A DNA stretch of 50,636 nt from Escherichia phage vB_EcoM_50EP. This document shows, piece by piece, positions 22,809 through 42,876 of the stretch. The notes below the pieces were generated by a model. That model was not told the origin of the DNA. It saw only the letters and a list, made by a program, of their open reading frames with translations, and searched no databases. The stretch is taken from sequence record OR472545.1. The stretch is one strand, 5' to 3'. Positions within the stretch are counted from its first letter, which is position 1; the number at the start of each line of letters is the position of its first letter. Made by a program: the position numbers and the translations under genes.

Positions 22809-22851
22809 TAGCACTTTTTGTTAAACATTGGTTTCGATGGTTGTTATTATA
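22809..22851 (+). promoter_or_regulatory. TAGCAC-box promoter cassette upstream of helicase, 6 bp from divergent HTH gene start
   Basis: TAGCACTTTTTGTTAAAC ... TATTAT ... TCGAACGAAC. Confidence 0.45.
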
Positions 22852-22887
22852 ACGTCAATCGAACGAACATGAAAGGCATTTAATACT

Positions 22888-24990
22888 ATGGCTATACGCA
22901 TTAAATCCATTAAAAAACAGATAGAAGAACTTGGCCCGCAAAAGATTAAAGAGATTCAGGATAAATTCACATTTGGCGACATGGTTCCTTATGAGTATCA
23001 GTGCGTAATGTATGACGAGATCGGCAAGCGCATTGCTCGCTATAAGCATCCATTCATCGTTAAGGCGTCGGTGTCGGCAGGTAAAACAATCGGCTTTGCC
23101 ATGATCGCATCGCGCGTCAAAGAGATGGGCTTGTCGATGATGATTCTTGCACGCCAGGGCGACATTGTTGCTCAGGATAGTGAAGAGATCTCAAACTTCG
23201 GCGTTCCTAACTCAGTTTATTGCGCTGGCCTGAACACGAAATCAGCTTACTTTCCTATCGTTGTAGGTTCGGAAGGTTCTGTTGCAAATGGTCTGTTTAA
23301 GGCGCTTGGTGACTTTACACCCATGGTTCTTGGGATTGATGAGTGCCACCAGGTGGATTGGGAAGACCTTGCCGCCGCCATCGACAACGAAGAAACGATC
23401 GAGATGATGCTAACTGAAAAAGATGAGCGCGTATTTGTTGACTACCCGAAAAACAGCGAAGGTTATGTCAATGGATACCTTGACGGCGTAGAGGTTGGCG
23501 TCCAGGTGATGGATAAGCAATTGCTGATAAGCCGGAAGACTGGCGAGCCTGTTCTTGGAACAAAACGAAGCCAGTACACGATCATAATCACTGAATTGAT
23601 GCGCCGCTGCAAAGAGAAGAACGGGAAGGAATTACGCATCTTCGGCATGACTGGTTCGGAGTTCAGAGGAACAGCGCCAATTGTTGTCGATAACCCTAAG
23701 CTGCCAGGATTCTGGCGTGAGCAGGTTACTAACATCGACACCAGCTACCTGATTGAGTTCGGCTCTGTTGTTCCAACAATCTTCGGAAGTGTCGGTGACG
23801 CTGGATATGATCTGGATGAGTTTAAGGCGTCAAGTCAGGATGGAACGGCTGACTTTGGTCAGAAAGAAATGAAGGCGATGGAGAAGAAAATCCATGATAA
23901 CGCCAGCATGACCAAGCGAATAATGGGAATGGTAGTCGAAGAGGCGAAGAAGCGAAACGGTGTACTGATTACGTGTTCAGGCCAGCGCCATTGCAAAGAG
24001 GCGGCGAGCTATCTGCCACCTGACGCTACCTATGAGATCATCACGGAGAAGACGAACACCAAAAAACGACAAGCGATACTGGAGGCGGCGAACCGTGGCG
24101 AGATCAAATACATATTCCAGGTGGTAGCGCTAACCACTGGCGTTAACGTTCCGTTTTGGGATTTTTCGGTAATCCTGCGCAAGATCGGCTCACTTACCCT
24201 GCTAATACAGTTGCTTGGTCGAGGTATGCGATTGCTTAAGCCGTGGCAAAAAGCGATGGGAATGGTGAAAGAAGATCACCTGGTATGGGATTTCGCTGGC
24301 ACGATGGATGAGCTTGGTCAGCTTTACTTCGATCCGATTCTTGAAGAGGCTCAGTACCAGCGCCGCTTTGATGGTAAGAAAGAGCCGAAAAAATGTGAAC
24401 TGTGCGGAACCGAGAACAGCTTTTACGCCCGCCGTTGCATTCACAGAGACGAAAACGGCAATCGTTGTGAGTATTTCTGGAAATCTCGAATCTGTGAAGA
24501 CCAGATTGATGATCGCACTGGTGAGGTGATTGTTAAGGGATGTGGCGCTGAGAATGACGTAGTGGCGAGAATATGCCGTTGCTGTGATGTGAGCCTGAAA
24601 GATCCCAATGATAATCTGACTGGTAAGGCTTACACCAAAAACGACTGGTGCACAGTGAATGGTTTTGAAGTAACGCTGACACGCAATCAGACTGGTATTC
24701 TTTATCGTTACGATCTGACAGATTCAGTTGGAGTTAATTTCATCGCGTATGAAAAGTTCTTCCCGCAGTCAACGGCACAGGTATGTCACACGATATGGAA
24801 ACAGAAAGGGGTGCTGCCTCATGTGCATGACAGTAAGATCGCAAAGTTAATGGCAGCTTACAGAAGTGCTAAAATGATTTTAAACAACGCTCACCACATA
24901 GCGCATCCAGTGCGGGTAACTCACCGCAAGAATGCAAAAGGTGAGGACATCATTTCACGTAAGGATTTTGGATTGGACGGTAACTTATGA
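22888..24990 (+). CDS. SF2 DNA helicase
   Basis: Walker A ASVSAGKT, DECH box (GIDECHQ), C-terminal Cys-rich zinc-ribbon-like segment. Confidence 0.7.
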   Translation: MAIRIKSIKKQIEELGPQKIKEIQDKFTFGDMVPYEYQCVMYDEIGKRIARYKHPFIVKASVSAGKTIGFAMIASRVKEMGLSMMILARQGDIVAQDSEEISNFGVPNSVYCAGLNTKSAYFPIVVGSEGSVANGLFKALGDFTPMVLGIDECHQVDWEDLAAAIDNEETIEMMLTEKDERVFVDYPKNSEGYVNGYLDGVEVGVQVMDKQLLISRKTGEPVLGTKRSQYTIIITELMRRCKEKNGKELRIFGMTGSEFRGTAPIVVDNPKLPGFWREQVTNIDTSYLIEFGSVVPTIFGSVGDAGYDLDEFKASSQDGTADFGQKEMKAMEKKIHDNASMTKRIMGMVVEEAKKRNGVLITCSGQRHCKEAASYLPPDATYEIITEKTNTKKRQAILEAANRGEIKYIFQVVALTTGVNVPFWDFSVILRKIGSLTLLIQLLGRGMRLLKPWQKAMGMVKEDHLVWDFAGTMDELGQLYFDPILEEAQYQRRFDGKKEPKKCELCGTENSFYARRCIHRDENGNRCEYFWKSRICEDQIDDRTGEVIVKGCGAENDVVARICRCCDVSLKDPNDNLTGKAYTKNDWCTVNGFEVTLTRNQTGILYRYDLTDSVGVNFIAYEKFFPQSTAQVCHTIWKQKGVLPHVHDSKIAKLMAAYRSAKMILNNAHHIAHPVRVTHRKNAKGEDIISRKDFGLDGNL

Positions 24991-25415
24991 TTACAGATAA
25001 AGGCGACTACCTGGAATATTACACTCCAGACAAATCGGATACATGGACCGAAAGCAAACACCAGATCGATTGCGTGACCTGGACTAAAGTTAGGCATGGT
25101 GATTTGCTGTTCTGGCACGCCGTTAATGAGAACAAGAAGCACATCCACACGGCGCTAAAGGATGCTCAGAGCGGGTTATTGAAAGGGGTTAGTGATTTTG
25201 TATTCCTTTTAGGCCCGTTCGGTAAATATCCGTTCGGGGCCATAGAATTGAAGCGCGTCAATAAGAGCGGGAAAGGAAAGGCATCACCAGTCAGCAAGGA
25301 GCAGAAAGATTTCCTCCGGCGTGTCCGAGAGCGCGGCGGGTTTGCGGCGGTGGCATACGGGCAGGAGGAATACAAGAAAGCCGTTGCTGATATGCTGAAT
25401 AGCACGAATTGCTAA
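24987..25415 (+). CDS. VRR-NUC domain nuclease
   Basis: 142 aa; pattern D..FLLGPFG...AIELK ... KEQKDFL consistent with VRR-NUC. Confidence 0.45.
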   Translation: MITDKGDYLEYYTPDKSDTWTESKHQIDCVTWTKVRHGDLLFWHAVNENKKHIHTALKDAQSGLLKGVSDFVFLLGPFGKYPFGAIELKRVNKSGKGKASPVSKEQKDFLRRVRERGGFAAVAYGQEEYKKAVADMLNSTNC

Positions 25416-25755: not shown

Positions 25756-26484
25756 ATGATCGACTCAAACGACAAGGATACTCATGACGCATTCGTTAGC
25801 TTTGAGCAGATCGAGCGTGAAAATTTTGTTACTAATGCGCTTGTTCCTGGCAATGGTCATTACCAAGCGGTTAAGCCAGACACCTTCTATCAGGTAACTG
25901 GAAACAGATACGCAGGAAGTAAGACGCCTGACGCAGTGCGTGACCTTTGGGCCACTGATCGAGAAGTGATCTCATGGATGGAGTCGCGTTATGGGAAGTA
26001 TGACATTGACGCCGCCGCCAGCGCTAACAATGCTGTTTGCGAAAAGTTCTATAGCGAACAAGTGAACTGCCTAAAAATCTGGTGGGGTAGCAATAAGCAC
26101 ATCTGGCTTAATCCGCCGTACTCACATCCAGATCCTTTCGTGAAGAAAGCGATTGAGCAAATGGAGCACAACAATCAGATTGATATGTTGCTTCCTGGTG
26201 ATAACTCTACGGCATGGTTTGCCGAGGCCCGTCGCAACGCGGCTGAAATCATCTGGATTGAGACTGACATCACAGAGATTGACAGTCAGGAATATTGCCG
26301 GACGGGGCGGTTGGCATTCATCTCTGGACTGACCGGAAAGCCTGTCGATGGCAACAATAAAGGTAGCGTGATTTTTGTCATGCGAAAACTGAAAGAAGGC
26401 GAGACGCAGAAAACGACATACGTTAGCGTTGCCGATATTTGTCCTGGCGTAAGCCGCAAGAAACCACGTAAACGGAGTGTTTAA
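25756..26484 (+). CDS. dam: DNA N6-adenine methyltransferase (phage Dam family)
   Basis: NPPY motif (WLNPPYSHPD); about 240 aa as in T1-type Dam. Confidence 0.65.
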   Translation: MIDSNDKDTHDAFVSFEQIERENFVTNALVPGNGHYQAVKPDTFYQVTGNRYAGSKTPDAVRDLWATDREVISWMESRYGKYDIDAAASANNAVCEKFYSEQVNCLKIWWGSNKHIWLNPPYSHPDPFVKKAIEQMEHNNQIDMLLPGDNSTAWFAEARRNAAEIIWIETDITEIDSQEYCRTGRLAFISGLTGKPVDGNNKGSVIFVMRKLKEGETQKTTYVSVADICPGVSRKKPRKRSV

Positions 26485-27240: not shown

Positions 27241-27488
27241 ACTTACCAGGCCTTGATTTTGACGCTGACAAATATCCGACTTGCAGCAACAACAATGAGA
27301 CGTTCGCGATCATCCCTTTCGCTGACTGGTTGCCTTCTGACTTCGAAGATGTGCCATGTTCGCGCGGTGGCGGCTATCGCCTGATGTATTTTAGCCCTTC
27401 AACTGGTATGATGGTTCCCAGCGAATCAGAGAATGCAGGTAAAGCGGTTGAACCAGATACTTTAACAACATGGCTGAAAAAGATTTGA
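27237..27488 (+). CDS. hypothetical protein
   Basis: ATGA overlap with upstream ORF. Confidence 0.35.
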   Translation: MNLPGLDFDADKYPTCSNNNETFAIIPFADWLPSDFEDVPCSRGGGYRLMYFSPSTGMMVPSESENAGKAVEPDTLTTWLKKI

Positions 27489-27571
27489 TGCTCTGCTTAA
27501 TTCCTGTATTATTACCGCCGCTAATTGGTTTTATTATCATCTACTTACTAACAAGATAAGGATTTACAAAA

Positions 27572-28714
27572 ATGGCTATTCAAAAAATAAGTGACGAACA
27601 ATTCATTGCTGAGCGCGAAGCTGGTAAGACACTGCGTCAAATAGCCCAAGAATACGGGATGAACATTCGAACCGTTGAGCAGCGCTCAAGCCGCCTGGCA
27701 AAGCGCGGTGAGTTCCACGGAAATAAACACGTAAGCGTACACGTACCAGAGGGTTTTCAGGTTAAAGGTACATCAACTATGATTCGCGCTGACGGTTCTG
27801 AGGTTGTGCGCTGGGTTAAGACCGATCAGGACAAGGAGAAGTTAGCCGCCATGATGAATGCTGCAATTGAAGCATTCTGTGATGAACTACCACGCGCGGC
27901 GGCTCAGCCTATCCTTGGCGAACCTCACTACGATGAAAATCTCCTGGCGCTCTATCCGGTATTCGATCTTCATATTGGCGCGATGGCACACAAGCATGAA
28001 TGCGGTGAGAACTACAGCACCGACATCTCAGAGAAAGTACTGAAAAACTTCTTTGATTATTCTGTCGGCGTATCTCCGAAGGCTAAGAAAGCAGTCCTGT
28101 TAATCGGCGGTGACTTCCTTCACTCTGATGGCCTGGACGCAGTAACGCCTGCAAGCGGTCACGTACTGGATCAGGATAGTCGATACGCCAAGCTAGTTCA
28201 CGTTGCAATCCGTTCCGTACGCCGCGCGGTGGCGCTAATGCTGGATAAGCACGAAGAAGTCGAAATCCAGATCATTGAGGGCAACCATGACCAGGCGGGT
28301 ATGATTTGGCTTCGCGCGGCAATGGCAGCATACTTTGAAGATGAGGCGCGCGTAACGGTTGATGTTTCACCTATGATTCTTCACCGTACTAAGTGGGGTA
28401 AAACATTGCTGGGATACACTCATGGTCACACCATGAAGAAAGCAGATACTCGACTGGCGGCAATGGCTACTGACTTCCGCGAAGAGTTCGGTACGAGCAA
28501 ATATATTTACACTCACTCGGGGCACTGGCATCACCAGACGATCACAGAAGGCACGCTTGGTATTGATGAGGTTCACGGTCAGTTGGGCGCGAAAGATGCC
28601 TATGCTGCGCGCGGCGGTTGGCGTTCATATCGCCAGGCGGCGGTAATTGTCTACTCCAAGGAGTTCGGCGAAGTAGGTCGCTTCGTTTACCGTCCTGAAA
28701 TGAGCGACATCTAA
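27572..28714 (+). CDS. calcineurin-like metallophosphoesterase with N-terminal HTH-like segment
   Basis: phosphoesterase motifs DLH, GGDFLHSD, GNHD, GHTH, GHWHH; N-terminal GKTLRQIAQEYGMNIRTV. Confidence 0.6.
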   Translation: MAIQKISDEQFIAEREAGKTLRQIAQEYGMNIRTVEQRSSRLAKRGEFHGNKHVSVHVPEGFQVKGTSTMIRADGSEVVRWVKTDQDKEKLAAMMNAAIEAFCDELPRAAAQPILGEPHYDENLLALYPVFDLHIGAMAHKHECGENYSTDISEKVLKNFFDYSVGVSPKAKKAVLLIGGDFLHSDGLDAVTPASGHVLDQDSRYAKLVHVAIRSVRRAVALMLDKHEEVEIQIIEGNHDQAGMIWLRAAMAAYFEDEARVTVDVSPMILHRTKWGKTLLGYTHGHTMKKADTRLAAMATDFREEFGTSKYIYTHSGHWHHQTITEGTLGIDEVHGQLGAKDAYAARGGWRSYRQAAVIVYSKEFGEVGRFVYRPEMSDI

Positions 28715-28757
28715 TAGCACGAATTGCCTAACACCATAGCGCCGGAAGGCGCTATAT
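28715..28757 (+). promoter_or_regulatory. TAGCAC-box promoter cassette
   Basis: TAGCACGAATTGCCTAAC ... GCGCCGGAAGGCGC hairpin ... TATATT. Confidence 0.4.
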
Positions 28758-28785: not shown

Positions 28786-28959
28786 ATGGTTAAATTATTT
28801 TGCGTTAAGAACACATCTAAAACTCTGCCTTTCACTGTTAACAATCCGTACAGCGCCGAGTACCAGGGCGACGGGAACTACAAGATTTACGGCGACGATA
28901 TGACGTGGATTTTTGCGCCGATTGATGGTGCTTTGGTGGAATTCATTATAGAAGACTAA
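28786..28959 (+). CDS. small hypothetical protein (57 aa, below track threshold)
   Basis: ATG after cassette; ORF read manually. Confidence 0.3.
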   Translation: MVKLFCVKNTSKTLPFTVNNPYSAEYQGDGNYKIYGDDMTWIFAPIDGALVEFIIED

Positions 28960-29073
28960 GTTATAAAAAACATGAAGTTACAAAGAGGTGGCCTTTAAGG
29001 TCGCCTTTTTTCGTTTATGTCAAGGAGTAATATCTGGTATTATTTAAACAAATAAACTTGACGAGGCCGCAAC

Positions 29074-32297: not shown

Positions 32298-32341
32298 AAT
32301 ATACCCGCCGAAGCGGGTATTGTCATTAACAAAAAGTGCTA
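32298..32341 (-). promoter_or_regulatory. TAGCAC-box promoter cassette (minus)
   Basis: rc: TAGCACTTTTTGTTAATG ... CCCGCTTCGGCGGG hairpin ... TATATT. Confidence 0.4.
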
Positions 32342-35494: not shown

Positions 35495-35538
35495 AATAAT
35501 AGCTAATCACTCCTGATCGGTCATTAGCAAAAAGTGCT
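35495..35538 (-). promoter_or_regulatory. TAGCAC-box promoter cassette (minus)
   Basis: rc: TAGCACTTTTTGCTAATG ... TATTAT ... CATCGAAACGGCAC. Confidence 0.45.
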
Positions 35539-41887: not shown

Positions 41888-42340
41888 ATGAAAAGGATTG
41901 ATGAACTTGTAATTATTACATCATTAGAGACTGATGATTGCATAGATTGGACTTACGCAAAAACAAGAGATGGATACGGCCAGGTTAGATATCGTGGGGC
42001 AACCAGAAGGGCGCACAAGGTATCATACTGCATGTCAAATGGAATTGACTATGAGGATGTAAAAGGTGTTGTAATGCACTCATGCGATAATCCTTGTTGT
42101 GTAAACCCAAGACACCTAACAGTTGGCACTCAGCATGAAAATATTATTGATTGCGTCTCAAAGGGTAGATTTAGAAGTGTGGAGGGCATTAAGAATCCAA
42201 GGTCGATAGTGTCAAACTCTGACGCAGAGAAAATGCGCTCAATGAGGGAGATTGGAATGACTTATGGTGATATAGCGAAAAGCATGGGCGTTGGAAAATC
42301 AACGGCGTATAGAGTAATAACAACTGGATACTTATCATGA
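41888..42340 (+). mobile_element. HNH homing endonuclease with C-terminal HTH-like segment
   Basis: DGYGQV...HK..Y......V.HSCDNPCCVNPRHL..GT..EN pattern; markedly AT-rich relative to flanks. Confidence 0.55.
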
Positions 42341-42876
42341 ATCAGCTTTACACAATGATTAAACACCATATAGAAACATCATACAATAACAAGCCTGTTT
42401 ACTGTTTTGACTACGACGGCACGCTGTCGGACGGATCGCATCGCTTGCACAGGTTGCCGACAAAGGATTTGCACCTTACCGAGTCATGGTCTGAGTTCAA
42501 TAGATTGTCAATACATGATGAACCTATCGAATCAACCATTCAGGTGATGAATAGCCTGTTTGACTCAGGCGCGTTCATCATCATTCTAACAGGGCGTTCA
42601 GATGAGGTATGTGAGATTTCAACTCAATGGCTTCATGATGCTGGCGCAAAATATAACGTCATGGTAATGCGGCAGGCGAGAGACAATCGCAAAGACACTC
42701 TCATCAAAGAGGAGTTCTTGCGTTACATTGGCTTGCACCGCATCACCGCAGCGTGGGATGATAGCCCTAATGTTATCGCGCACTTCCGAAGCCTGCGAAT
42801 CACCACCTATCAAGTGTGTGACTATGGCGATAAGCTCCATGCCGGAGTAGGATCACACGGCGTGCATAATAAGTGA
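42337..42876 (+). CDS. HAD-superfamily phosphatase
   Basis: DxDGT motif (FDYDGTL) near N-terminus, ILTGRS motif II-like. Confidence 0.5.
   Translation: MNQLYTMIKHHIETSYNNKPVYCFDYDGTLSDGSHRLHRLPTKDLHLTESWSEFNRLSIHDEPIESTIQVMNSLFDSGAFIIILTGRSDEVCEISTQWLHDAGAKYNVMVMRQARDNRKDTLIKEEFLRYIGLHRITAAWDDSPNVIAHFRSLRITTYQVCDYGDKLHAGVGSHGVHNK

What the first reader, a model, noticed from the sequence alone, without database searches (positions are those of the whole stretch)
27572..28714. Metallophosphoesterase with an N-terminal HTH-like extension
All calcineurin-like phosphoesterase motifs are present (DLH, GGDFLHSD, GNHD, GHTH, GHWHH). The first roughly 45 residues (GKTLRQIAQEYGMNIRTVEQRSSRL) look like a helix-turn-helix, which is unusual for this fold. 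This could target the enzyme to DNA (Mre11/SbcD-like nuclease role) or couple phosphatase activity to regulation.
Basis: seen in the sequence. Interest (0 to 1): 0.45.

Follow-up and report, generated by a model that had tools for sequence, protein, structure and literature searches.

The report
Phage T1 gp16-type HTH-tethered metallophosphoesterase

Summary
The ORF at 27572..28714 (+, 380 aa) is real. It is the orthologue of coliphage T1 gp16/ST16 (66% identity) and a full-length member of PHROG 704, auto-named "DNA repair exonuclease". All five metallophosphoesterase (MPE) motifs are present and near-invariant across more than 4,600 family representatives.

A high-confidence AlphaFold model (pLDDT 92.6) shows four parts:
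- a three-helix HTH (aa 1-46)
- a flexible linker
- a family-specific β-hairpin plus helix (aa 62-105)
- an MPE core (aa 121-380)

The HTH is the family norm (123 of 147 representatives) and is never found detached from this gene. There is no capping domain and no Rad50/SbcC partner. Recurrent neighbours are a PNKP-type 3'-phosphatase, dNMP kinase, ligase or resolvase, and the lysis or terminase modules.

Best reading: a stand-alone, Rad50-independent DNA nuclease or phosphodiesterase that carries its own DNA-binding module. No experimental study was found.

The parts
27572..28714 (+). Complete CDS (380 aa plus stop): orthologue of phage T1 gp16/ST16 and member of PHROG 704
   Evidence: ORF list. 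PHROG 704 E 2.3e-152 over aa 4-378. 66% identity to T1 ST16 over the full length.
27558..27562 (+). Shine-Dalgarno-like AAGGA, 9 nt upstream of the ATG
   Evidence: Read directly from the sequence.
27572..27709 (+). N-terminal three-helix helix-turn-helix module (aa 1-46; helices 8-16, 21-27, 32-44). The presumed recognition helix IRTVEQRSSRLAKRG has net charge +4.
   Evidence: AF2 pLDDT about 95. Weak HTH_23/Sigma70_r4 hits in the window protein. Strong HTH hits at the same position in relatives. Profile hits to GerE and RhlR. 123 of 147 representatives share it.
27710..27754 (+). Linker (aa 47-61) between the HTH and the core; lower model confidence, with conserved G/P residues
   Evidence: pLDDT 69-80 in this block. 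G46, H49, G50, P59 and G61 are invariant in T1-like members.
27755..27886 (+). Family-specific β-hairpin (aa 62-86) plus long helix (aa 88-105), with conserved G75 and W81; part of the conserved core, retained in HTH-less relatives
   Evidence: Model. G75 and W81 are at least 92% conserved. Campylobacter, Vibrio and Flavobacterium phage matches begin at about aa 64-67.
27932..28711 (+). Metallophosphoesterase catalytic core (aa 121-380)
27965..27973 (+). MPE motif I, D132-L-H134
   Evidence: D132 and H134 invariant in 148 representatives.
28106..28129 (+). MPE motif II, GGDFLHSD (D181; H184 is the Mre11-type 'GDxxH' histidine)
   Evidence: G180 and D181 invariant; H184 at least 90% conserved.
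28130..28183 (+). Family-specific conserved loop after motif II (aa 187-204; T192, L199, D200, D202, R204); function unknown, candidate substrate-binding element
   Evidence: At least 90% conserved across the family. It was disordered in the shallow-alignment model and ordered in the deep one.
28280..28291 (+). MPE motif III, GNHD (N238, H239)
   Evidence: At least 90% conserved, and invariant in A3. The region around it gives the weak PdeM match.
28421..28429 (+). MPE motif IV, H284-G-H286
   Evidence: H284 invariant.
28520..28534 (+). MPE motif V, GHWHH (H318, H320)
   Evidence: At least 90% conserved.
28736..28755 (+). GC-rich 8-bp hairpin 22 nt after the stop codon, with no T-run; T1 has an annotated rho-independent terminator at the equivalent place
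   Evidence: RNA fold -15 kcal/mol, z -2.86. T1 annotation.
22809..22862 (+). Conserved sigma-70-type phage promoter heading the operon that contains the gene (helicase, VRR-NUC, Dam, small ORFs, HTH-MPE, SH3)
   Evidence: Motif ATAGCACTTTTTGTTAAA, about 17 nt, then an extended -10. 10 copies against 0.58 expected.
28982..29010 (+). Strong intrinsic-terminator-like hairpin between the SH3 gene and the holin; it closes the transcription unit that contains the HTH-MPE gene
   Evidence: 13-bp stem plus T-run. RNA fold -21.4 kcal/mol, z -4.35.

Best explanation
The gene encodes a two-module enzyme. A binuclear-metal phosphodiesterase of the nuclease branch of the MPE superfamily (closest to PolD-DP1, Mre11/SbcD and PdeM) is fused through a flexible linker to an N-terminal three-helix HTH of the sigma-70 region 4 / LuxR-GerE / Fis type.

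The most likely mechanism is as follows. The HTH anchors the protein on duplex DNA. This replaces the DNA-tethering roles that Rad50/SbcC plus the capping domain play for Mre11, or that DP2 plays for DP1. The Mn2+/Mg2+ active site (D132, H134, D181, N238, H239, H284, H318, H320, plus the Mre11-type H184) then hydrolyses DNA phosphodiester bonds at ends, nicks or single-stranded/branched regions.

In this phage the gene is transcribed from an early-type sigma-70 promoter, together with an SF2 helicase, a VRR-NUC nuclease and Dam. It probably serves phage DNA metabolism at the replication-to-packaging transition, in one or both of two ways: trimming or processing DNA ends and replication/recombination intermediates, or breaking down host DNA to feed nucleotide salvage.

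Shown here: the domain architecture, conservation of the catalytic residues, fold similarity, absence of a Rad50 partner and capping domain, and the gene neighbourhoods.

Inferred: DNA as the substrate, DNA binding by the HTH, and the biological role.
For: The motifs are invariant over a family of more than 4,600 representatives.

The AF2 model has pLDDT 92.6 and pTM 0.84, with a discrete HTH.

Profile-versus-PDB search recovers only nuclease MPEs: SbcD 0.13, Mre11 0.32, 'Nuclease MPE' 1.1, all sub-threshold. Among the 25 most-hit NCBIfam families, PdeM is the only MPE subfamily model (28 of 126 members, best 1.6e-5).

Motif II is GDFLH, resembling Mre11's GDLFH (sequence plus established knowledge of Mre11).

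The HTH is present in 123 of 147 representatives. It is duplicated in one (P0183), and in a sampled list from 1,529 phage records it always lies under this same gene.

Neighbours are DNA-metabolism genes:
- exonuclease, endonuclease VII, [MPE], PNKP phosphatase, dNMP kinase, ligase in PP99
- resolvase, ligase, [MPE] in Campylobacter phage F361
- [MPE], PNKP, dNMP kinase in a Yersinia phage, in 4 of 15 clades, and in Drexlerviridae lacking SH3 (PMC13164509)

Operon structure in the window.

Precedent: mycobacteriophage Gp48, a phage MPE with phosphodiesterase activity that damages host DNA (PMC12287305).
Against: No biochemical or genetic data exist for any family member (no paper found).

The structural preference for nucleases is modest, since generic phosphodiesterases follow closely (MJ0936 14.0, LpxH 13.4, Rv0805 12.5).

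All sequence links to characterised nuclease subfamilies are below significance or below membership cut-offs.

The phage already encodes RecE-like exonuclease VIII, Erf and SSB and a VRR-NUC nuclease, so a nuclease role is not obviously unfilled.

Gene context differs between phage groups and no neighbour is universal.

The position of the HTH relative to the active site could not be examined, because no coordinates or PAE were available.
Confidence: 0.55

Rival explanations
1. Nucleic-acid end-healing enzyme. The MPE domain would act as a 2',3'-cyclic phosphodiesterase or 3'-phosphoesterase that cleans damaged DNA or RNA (for example tRNA) ends. It would work with the neighbouring PNKP-type phosphatase and a ligase, as the MPE domain does in bacterial Pnkp. 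The HTH would hold it on nucleic acid.
Against: The structural match to PnkP is much weaker than to DP1, Mre11 and SbcD. T1-like phages already carry a dedicated HAD 3'-phosphatase, which has no kinase domain (window 42337..42876), and no ligase. The PNKP neighbour is present in only 4 of 15 clades.
Confidence: 0.15
2. Small-molecule nucleotide phosphodiesterase. The enzyme would either destroy cyclic (oligo)nucleotide immune signals or remodel dNTP/dNMP pools together with the HAD phosphatase and dNMP kinase. The HTH would serve for autoregulation or localisation.
For: The MPE superfamily includes cNMP phosphodiesterases with similar fold scores (Rv0805 12.5, GpdQ 12.2). HAD phosphatase and dNMP kinase are recurrent neighbours. 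A defence system pairs a calcineurin-like MPE with a HAD phosphatase to act on dNTPs (bioRxiv 10.64898/2026.01.15.699771). One locus has an Acb2/Tad1-like sponge three genes downstream.
Against: A conserved DNA-binding module is hard to explain for a soluble-nucleotide enzyme. The family has no PADLOC hit and no anti-defence literature. The nearest structural and sequence relatives are nucleases.
Confidence: 0.12
3. DNA-bound regulator of the early-to-late switch. The sigma-70 region 4-like HTH would bind a phage DNA site or RNA polymerase and control lysis or packaging gene expression. The MPE domain would act as a sensor or accessory.
For: The position is strikingly constant, at the boundary between the early/nin-like region and the lysis and/or terminase genes. 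This holds in T1-like, Rhodobacter, Vibrio, Yersinia, lambdoid and P22-like phages, which is the slot occupied by Q in lambda. In the window a strong terminator precedes the holin. HTH hits include sigma-70 region 4.
Against: Every catalytic residue is under strong purifying selection, as expected of an active enzyme. L090 has its own Q antiterminator upstream. No repeated operator-like motif flanks the gene; the repeated intergenic motifs are ordinary promoters located elsewhere. In PP99 and the Campylobacter phage the gene sits among DNA-metabolism genes. The Campylobacter homologue lacks the HTH altogether.
Confidence: 0.06
4. Ser/Thr (or Tyr) protein phosphatase like lambda PP (NinI), as some GenBank records annotate orthologues.
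For: Same superfamily. Some records call orthologues 'putative serine/threonine protein phosphatase'. Lambda NinI occupies a similar genome slot (established knowledge).
Confidence: 0.03

Closest known systems
Archaeal PolD small subunit DP1 (Mre11-like 3'-5' proofreading exonuclease; PDB 5ihe)
   Different: Only 13% identity. There is no DP2 catalytic partner, and T1-like phages encode no DNA polymerase at all. Instead of a full OB fold there is only a β-hairpin plus a helix. The N-terminal domain here is a classic DNA-binding HTH.
Mre11 / SbcD nucleases (with Rad50 / SbcC)
   Different: No capping domain or Rad50-binding helices, since the protein ends with the MPE core. No Rad50/SbcC-like gene in the window or next to any homologue examined. 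SbcD and Mre11 models are not among the 25 most-hit NCBIfam families. It has an N-terminal HTH instead.
PdeM / Pseudomonas putida 'Nuclease MPE' (ligase-associated Mn2+-dependent ssDNA endonuclease; TIGR04123; PDB 6nvo)
   Same: Among the 25 most-hit NCBIfam families, it is the only MPE subfamily model (28 of 126 members, best E 1.6e-5; window protein E 0.0012). It is a stand-alone, Rad50-independent MPE nuclease. Ligase is adjacent in some phages.
Mycobacteriophage A10ZJ24 Gp48 (cluster A phage MPE; PMC12287305)
   Same: A phage-encoded MPE with demonstrated phosphodiesterase activity that disrupts host genomic DNA and counters defence. It is a functional precedent for a phage MPE acting on DNA without Rad50.
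   Different: Motif I lies at D10, so there is no N-terminal HTH or hairpin extension. No relationship beyond the superfamily level was shown. It comes from a different host and phage lineage.
Lambda NinI (lambda protein phosphatase)
   Same: An MPE-superfamily gene located at the distal end of the early 'nin' region, just before the late genes. This is the slot the HTH-MPE occupies in lambdoid and P22-like contigs (lambda gene order from established knowledge).
   Different: The PPP-type motifs (GDxVDRG, GNHE) are absent here and there is no HTH. Both genes co-occur in L092.

Membership tests
PHROG 704 ('DNA repair exonuclease') / T1 gp16 orthologous group | Full-length, high-scoring match to the family profile | tested here: met
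   E 2.3e-152, aa 4-378 against profile positions 2-389 of 390. 66% identity to T1 ST16. Syntenic position upstream of SH3, holin, endolysin and spanin (PMC13164509).
Metallophosphoesterase (calcineurin-like) superfamily | Five motifs: DxH / GD / GNH(D/E) / H / GHxH | tested here: met
   D132-x-H134, G180-D181, G237-N-H-D240, H284 and G317-H-x-H320 are all present and invariant or at least 90% conserved in 148 representatives.
Metallophosphoesterase (calcineurin-like) superfamily | Four-layer alpha/beta sandwich fold | tested here: met
Metallophosphoesterase (calcineurin-like) superfamily | Pfam PF00149/PF12850 score above the gathering threshold | tested here: inconclusive
   The window protein gives no hit at E of 1 or below. 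29 of 126 relatives hit Metallophos (best 2.7e-5), and a few exceed the 21.5-bit cut-off. The family is too divergent for the Pfam model.
Mre11/SbcD nuclease family | Capping domain and Rad50-binding region C-terminal to the nuclease domain | tested here: not met
   The model shows the MPE core running to the C-terminus (aa 121-380) with no additional domain.
Mre11/SbcD nuclease family | Rad50/SbcC ATPase partner encoded alongside | tested here: not met
   None in the window's close relative or in T1, nor in 14 further neighbourhoods.
Mre11/SbcD nuclease family | Match to subfamily sequence models | tested here: not met
   SbcD and Mre11 models are not among the 25 NCBIfam families most hit by 126 members. 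Profile-versus-PDB E values of 0.13-0.6 are not significant.
PolD DP1 / B-subunit family | Phosphodiesterase domain similarity | tested here: met
PolD DP1 / B-subunit family | OB-fold domain and association with a polymerase catalytic subunit (DP2) | tested here: not met
   Only a β-hairpin plus a helix precede the core. No polymerase gene occurs in T1-like genomes.
PdeM (TIGR04123) ligase-associated endonuclease | Score above the curated cut-off (150 bits) and an Lhr-ligase operon | tested here: not met
   18.3 bits for the window protein. 28 of 126 relatives hit it weakly. There is no Lhr or ligase in the window.
PPP protein phosphatases (lambda PP / NinI type) | Motifs GDxVDRG and GNHE | tested here: not met
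Tri-helical HTH DNA-binding domains (sigma-70 region 4 / LuxR-GerE / Fis-type) | Three-helix bundle with helix-turn-helix geometry and a match to HTH sequence models | tested here: met
   Helices 8-16, 21-27 and 32-44 at pLDDT about 95. The window's own hits are sub-threshold, but homologous segments in relatives hit Sigma70_r4_2 at 1.5e-9, GerE at 2.4e-8 and HTH_8 at 3.2e-8, which is above its cut-off. The profile hits GerE and RhlR in the PDB.
Tri-helical HTH DNA-binding domains (sigma-70 region 4 / LuxR-GerE / Fis-type) | Actual DNA binding | not testable with these tools
   Requires EMSA or DAP-seq. Only the positive charge of the recognition helix (+4) can be read from the sequence.

The most novel reading that the evidence does not exclude
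The HTH makes this a site- or structure-directed, Rad50-independent Mre11/DP1-like nuclease that acts at the replication-to-packaging/lysis transition. This would fit its near-constant genome position between the early region and the lysis or terminase genes in unrelated phages. For example, it might prepare concatemer ends or branches for terminase. Alternatively, it might be the long-unassigned host-chromosome-degradation function of T1 (classical genetics, recalled from memory and not checked here). Either would define a new functional class of phage DNA-processing enzyme present in more than 2,000 sequenced phages.
Probability: 0.12. Interest if true: 0.65.

Novelty: new member of a known kind. 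Interest (0 to 1): 0.3.

Why it matters
The family is one of the most widespread uncharacterised enzymes of tailed phages. It occurs in about 4% of GenBank phage records, and in 508 of 522 Drexlerviridae as part of a persistent gene module. These include many therapeutic candidate phages against E. coli, Klebsiella, Salmonella and Shigella.

Its label 'DNA repair exonuclease' rests only on remote homology. Showing what it cuts would replace a guessed name in thousands of genomes. It would also tell us whether an HTH can substitute for Rad50/SbcC in directing an Mre11-like active site, and could explain host-DNA breakdown or DNA-end processing in T1-like phages.

For this window specifically, the gene is an ordinary, expected core gene.

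Tried and rejected
- **Single-sequence searches were uninformative.** Pfam gave no Metallophos hit, phmmer against the PDB gave nothing, and PADLOC gave nothing. Family-level profiles were needed.
- **Some searches could not run.** The search for related loci with alignment A3 on viral contigs failed for lack of a conserved stretch, as did A4 and A5 on bacterial genomes. Distribution in bacterial chromosomes was therefore not surveyed. The afdb50 fold library was unavailable.
- **Literature searches for experimental work found nothing relevant**.
- **A direct role in lysis was rejected.** It was suggested by adjacency to holin and endolysin. However, a strong terminator separates the gene from the holin, and the gene shares an early-type promoter with DNA-metabolism genes. 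In other phages it abuts terminase or PNKP genes instead.
- **A Rad50/SbcC-like partner was sought in every neighbourhood and not found.**
- **No operator-like repeat lies near the gene.** The two repeated intergenic motifs are promoter and leader elements elsewhere in the genome.
- **An apparent 225-nt insertion in the HTH-coding part of phage XT34 is an assembly gap.** It proved to be a run of Ns with duplicated flanks.
- **The protein-phosphatase annotation was rejected on motif grounds.**
Full report
**What is there.** The window is a T1-like siphophage genome (Drexlerviridae, Nouzillyvirus-like). The queried segment is 94-96% identical in nucleotides to Escherichia phages BUCT-XGG-1, CJ19, P817 and PH1062. 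ORF 27572..28714 (+) encodes 380 aa, with an AAGGA ribosome-binding site 9 nt upstream. No competing ORF of note lies on either strand. It is the orthologue of phage T1 ST16/gp16, at 66% identity over the full length. It matches PHROG 704 ('DNA repair exonuclease') end to end, with E 2.3e-152.

**Check of the observation.** All quoted motifs are present: D132-L-H134, GGDFLHSD (179-186), GNHD (237-240) and GHWHH (317-321).
- Pfam gives no Metallophos hit at E of 1 or below, and only weak HTH hits (HTH_23 E 0.02, aa 13-43).
- phmmer against the PDB gives nothing.

The family evidence is decisive. An exhaustive search finds 4,601 representatives at 50% clustering. Among 148 of them that share about 30-40% identity with the query, D132, H134, G180, D181 and H284 are invariant. 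H184, N238, H239, H318 and H320 are at least 90% conserved. Twenty-nine of 126 members hit Pfam Metallophos on their own.

**Structure.** A first model from 30 close homologues was mediocre (pLDDT 72). With 148 diverse sequences the model reaches pLDDT 92.6 and pTM 0.84. It shows:
- a three-helix unit (helices 8-16, 21-27, 32-44; pLDDT about 95)
- a lower-confidence linker (aa 47-61)
- a β-hairpin (62-86) plus a long helix (88-105)
- a variable linker
- an α/β core from aa 121 to the C-terminus

**The N-terminal segment is a genuine HTH and is ancestral to the family.** Homologous N-termini in relatives hit Sigma70_r4_2 (1.5e-9), GerE (2.4e-8), HTH_8/Fis (2.6e-7), HTH_1, HTH_50 and HTH_23. In a P22-like contig the HTH_8 hit exceeds Pfam's cut-off (3.2e-8). 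The family profile's best PDB sequence hits for this region are GerE and RhlR.

An iterative HMM seeded on the T1-like N-termini recovers 123 of the 147 representatives that have an N-terminal region. Only three short, probably truncated, sequences lack one. One member carries two tandem HTHs. The Campylobacter Fletchervirus homologue (317 aa) lacks the HTH but keeps the hairpin.

The 63 N-terminal residues alone find 1,529 phage records, and in every listed case the match lies under this same gene. The hairpin-helix element (G75 and W81, at least 92% conserved) belongs to the catalytic core family, whereas the HTH is a separable module. That condition is not met.

**Which kind of MPE?** Sequence evidence is weak but points one way. 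With the family profile, the only MPEs retrieved from PDB sequences are T. maritima SbcD/Mre11 (E 0.13-0.6) and P. putida 'Nuclease MPE' (E 1.1). Among the 25 NCBIfam families most hit by 126 members, the only MPE subfamily model is PdeM, the ligase-associated DNA-damage-response endonuclease. It is hit by 28 members (best 1.6e-5), far below its 150-bit cut-off. Motif II (GDFLH) resembles Mre11's GDLFH and not the PPP phosphatases' GDxVDRG, and motif III is GNHD, not GNHE.

The protein is nevertheless not an Mre11/SbcD family member. It has no capping domain, and no Rad50/SbcC gene is present in the phage or next to any homologue examined.

**Surroundings in the window.** A conserved promoter family occurs 10 times against 0.58 expected by chance. 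Its form is ATAGCACTTTTTGTTAAA, about 17 nt, then an extended -10. The copy at 22812 heads a co-directional gene string:
1. SF2 helicase (22888-24990)
2. VRR-NUC nuclease (24987-25415)
3. Dam methylase (25756-26484)
4. several small ORFs, including a 29-aa hydrophobic peptide (27470-27559)
5. the HTH-MPE
6. the SH3/DUF7244 gene (28786-28959)

A strong terminator-like hairpin at 28982-29010 (13-bp stem plus T-run; -21.4 kcal/mol, z -4.35) separates this unit from holin, endolysin and spanin. In T1, terminators are annotated directly after ST16.

The gene therefore belongs, transcriptionally, with DNA-metabolism genes and not with the lysis genes. This holds despite the conserved 'exonuclease-(SH3)-holin-endolysin-spanin' order in 508 of 522 Drexlerviridae (PMC13164509). 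The phage also has a separate exonuclease VIII/Erf/SSB recombination module.

**Neighbourhoods elsewhere.** The family occurs in 2,068 of 50,697 phage records. These include Drexlerviridae, Guernseyvirinae (including Kagunavirus), Casjensviridae, T7-like Gajwadongvirus, and Klebsiella, Yersinia, Vibrio, Campylobacter, Flavobacterium and Roseobacter phages. It also occurs in many temperate lambdoid or P22-like metagenomic contigs. No neighbour is universal (15 clades analysed). Two themes recur.

- **Nucleic-acid-metabolism neighbours.** A HAD PNKP-type 3'-phosphatase sits at +1 and dNMP kinase at +2 in 4 clades, in a Yersinia phage, and in Drexlerviridae lacking SH3. PP99 has exonuclease, endonuclease VII, [MPE], PNKP, dNMP kinase and ligase. 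Campylobacter F361 has resolvase, ligase and [MPE] (PMC13164509). The window's own 'polynucleotide kinase' (42337-42876) is only the HAD phosphatase domain.
- **A constant boundary position.** The gene lies at the junction of the early/nin-like region and the lysis and/or terminase-portal genes. In L095 it lies immediately before P22-type TerS. In L090 it lies between the spanin and TerS, downstream of a Q antiterminator.

**Mechanism proposed.** The best-supported reading is a stand-alone DNA phosphodiesterase (nuclease). Its binuclear metal site is Mre11/DP1/PdeM-like, and its own HTH supplies DNA binding in place of Rad50/SbcC, the capping domain or DP2. It probably processes DNA ends or intermediates, or degrades host DNA for nucleotide salvage. 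That would be consistent with the 3'-phosphatase and dNMP-kinase neighbours. A phage MPE that damages host DNA has an experimental precedent in mycobacteriophage Gp48. That protein lacks the HTH and is not shown to be a close relative (PMC12287305).

What is shown: the architecture, conservation, fold ranking, lack of a partner, and operon structure. What is inferred: the substrate, HTH-DNA binding and the biological role.

Rivals, in descending order of likelihood:
1. an end-healing phosphoesterase working with PNKP and ligase
2. a small-molecule nucleotide phosphodiesterase (compare the MPE+HAD defence module of bioRxiv 10.64898/2026.01.15.699771)
3. a late-switch regulator exploiting the sigma-70 region 4-like HTH
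4. a lambda-PP-like protein phosphatase (disfavoured by its motifs)

**Comparison with the known, and novelty.** The gene works most like DP1, Mre11/SbcD or PdeM, but it fails the membership tests for each of those families. It is a bona fide member of PHROG 704 and the T1 gp16 group, a catalogued but experimentally untouched family. No paper characterising any member was found.

GenBank labels are inconsistent. They include hypothetical protein, DNA repair exonuclease, phosphoesterase, Ser/Thr phosphatase, oxidoreductase, 'sigma-70 region 4 domain-containing' and 'winged HTH domain-containing'. Pipelines therefore already see both domains.

For this window the finding is an ordinary, expected core gene: a new member of a known kind. 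The family-level question of what an HTH-tethered, Rad50-less Mre11-like enzyme does at the early-late boundary of thousands of phages is open and readily testable. That justifies a modest interest score of about 0.3.

**Dead ends.** See 'tried and rejected'. In particular, the apparent insertion in phage XT34 is an assembly gap. Bacterial-genome and AFDB surveys could not be run.

Noticed in passing
window, + strand starts 17646, 22812, 38524, 39854, 40930, 41815, 44263; - strand 1524-1537, 32325-32338, 35523-35536: A conserved sigma-70-type promoter family: ATAGCACTTTTTG(T/C)TAA(A/T), about 17 nt, then (TG)nTATAAT/TATAGT. It has 10 copies against 0.58 expected by chance, mostly co-oriented with the downstream early or DNA-metabolism genes.
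   Followed up: partly
window 16111, 22828, 25448, 32920, 35009, 37308, 44308 (12-mers): A second repeated motif, TTCGTTTCGATG / CATCGAAACGAA, with 7 copies against 0.48 expected. In several cases it lies just downstream of the -10 of the promoters above, in the leader region. Its function is unknown.
   Followed up: partly
window 28982-29010: A strong intrinsic-terminator-like hairpin (13-bp stem, T-run; -21.4 kcal/mol, z -4.35) lies between the SH3/DUF7244 gene and the holin. The lysis cassette must therefore be expressed by read-through or from its own unrecognised promoter.
   Followed up: partly
window 27470-27559 (+): A 29-aa ORF, MAEKDLMLCLIPVLLPPLIGFIIIYLLTR, encoding a single hydrophobic helix. 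It lies immediately upstream of the HTH-MPE gene and overlaps the end of the preceding ORF. It is annotated as a hypothetical protein in PH1062.
   Followed up: no
window 42337-42876 (+): The gene annotated 'polynucleotide kinase' in relatives and in T1 contains only the HAD phosphatase domain of PNKP (PF25109, E 1e-15). It has no kinase domain, so it is probably a stand-alone DNA/RNA 3'-phosphatase.
   Followed up: partly
window 28786-28959 (+): A 57-aa stand-alone SH3-like protein (DUF7244, E 5.6e-30) lies between the HTH-MPE gene and the terminator and holin. PMC13164509 proposes it as a lysis-module component, yet here it sits on the MPE side of the terminator.
   Followed up: partly
window 41888-42340 (+): A 150-aa ORF combines an HNH endonuclease motif with a C-terminal resolvase-type HTH_7. 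It is a likely homing endonuclease directly upstream of the 3'-phosphatase gene.
   Followed up: no
loci L089-L095 (metagenomic and genomic contigs), L004, L003, L008: Across unrelated phages the HTH-MPE gene keeps the same slot, at the end of the early/nin-like region and directly before the lysis and/or TerS-TerL-portal genes. In several of these contigs no Q-like late regulator is recognised by Pfam.
   Followed up: partly
L097 (phage XT34, OR767160.1 42187-44153): The GenBank record has a run of Ns flanked by a duplicated copy of the 5' part of the gene. This assembly junction mimics an insertion in the HTH-coding region.
   Followed up: yes
L093 9565-9927: An Acb2/Tad1-hairpin-family (anti-CBASS/Thoeris sponge-like) gene lies three genes downstream of the HTH-MPE gene in one temperate-phage contig.
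   Followed up: no
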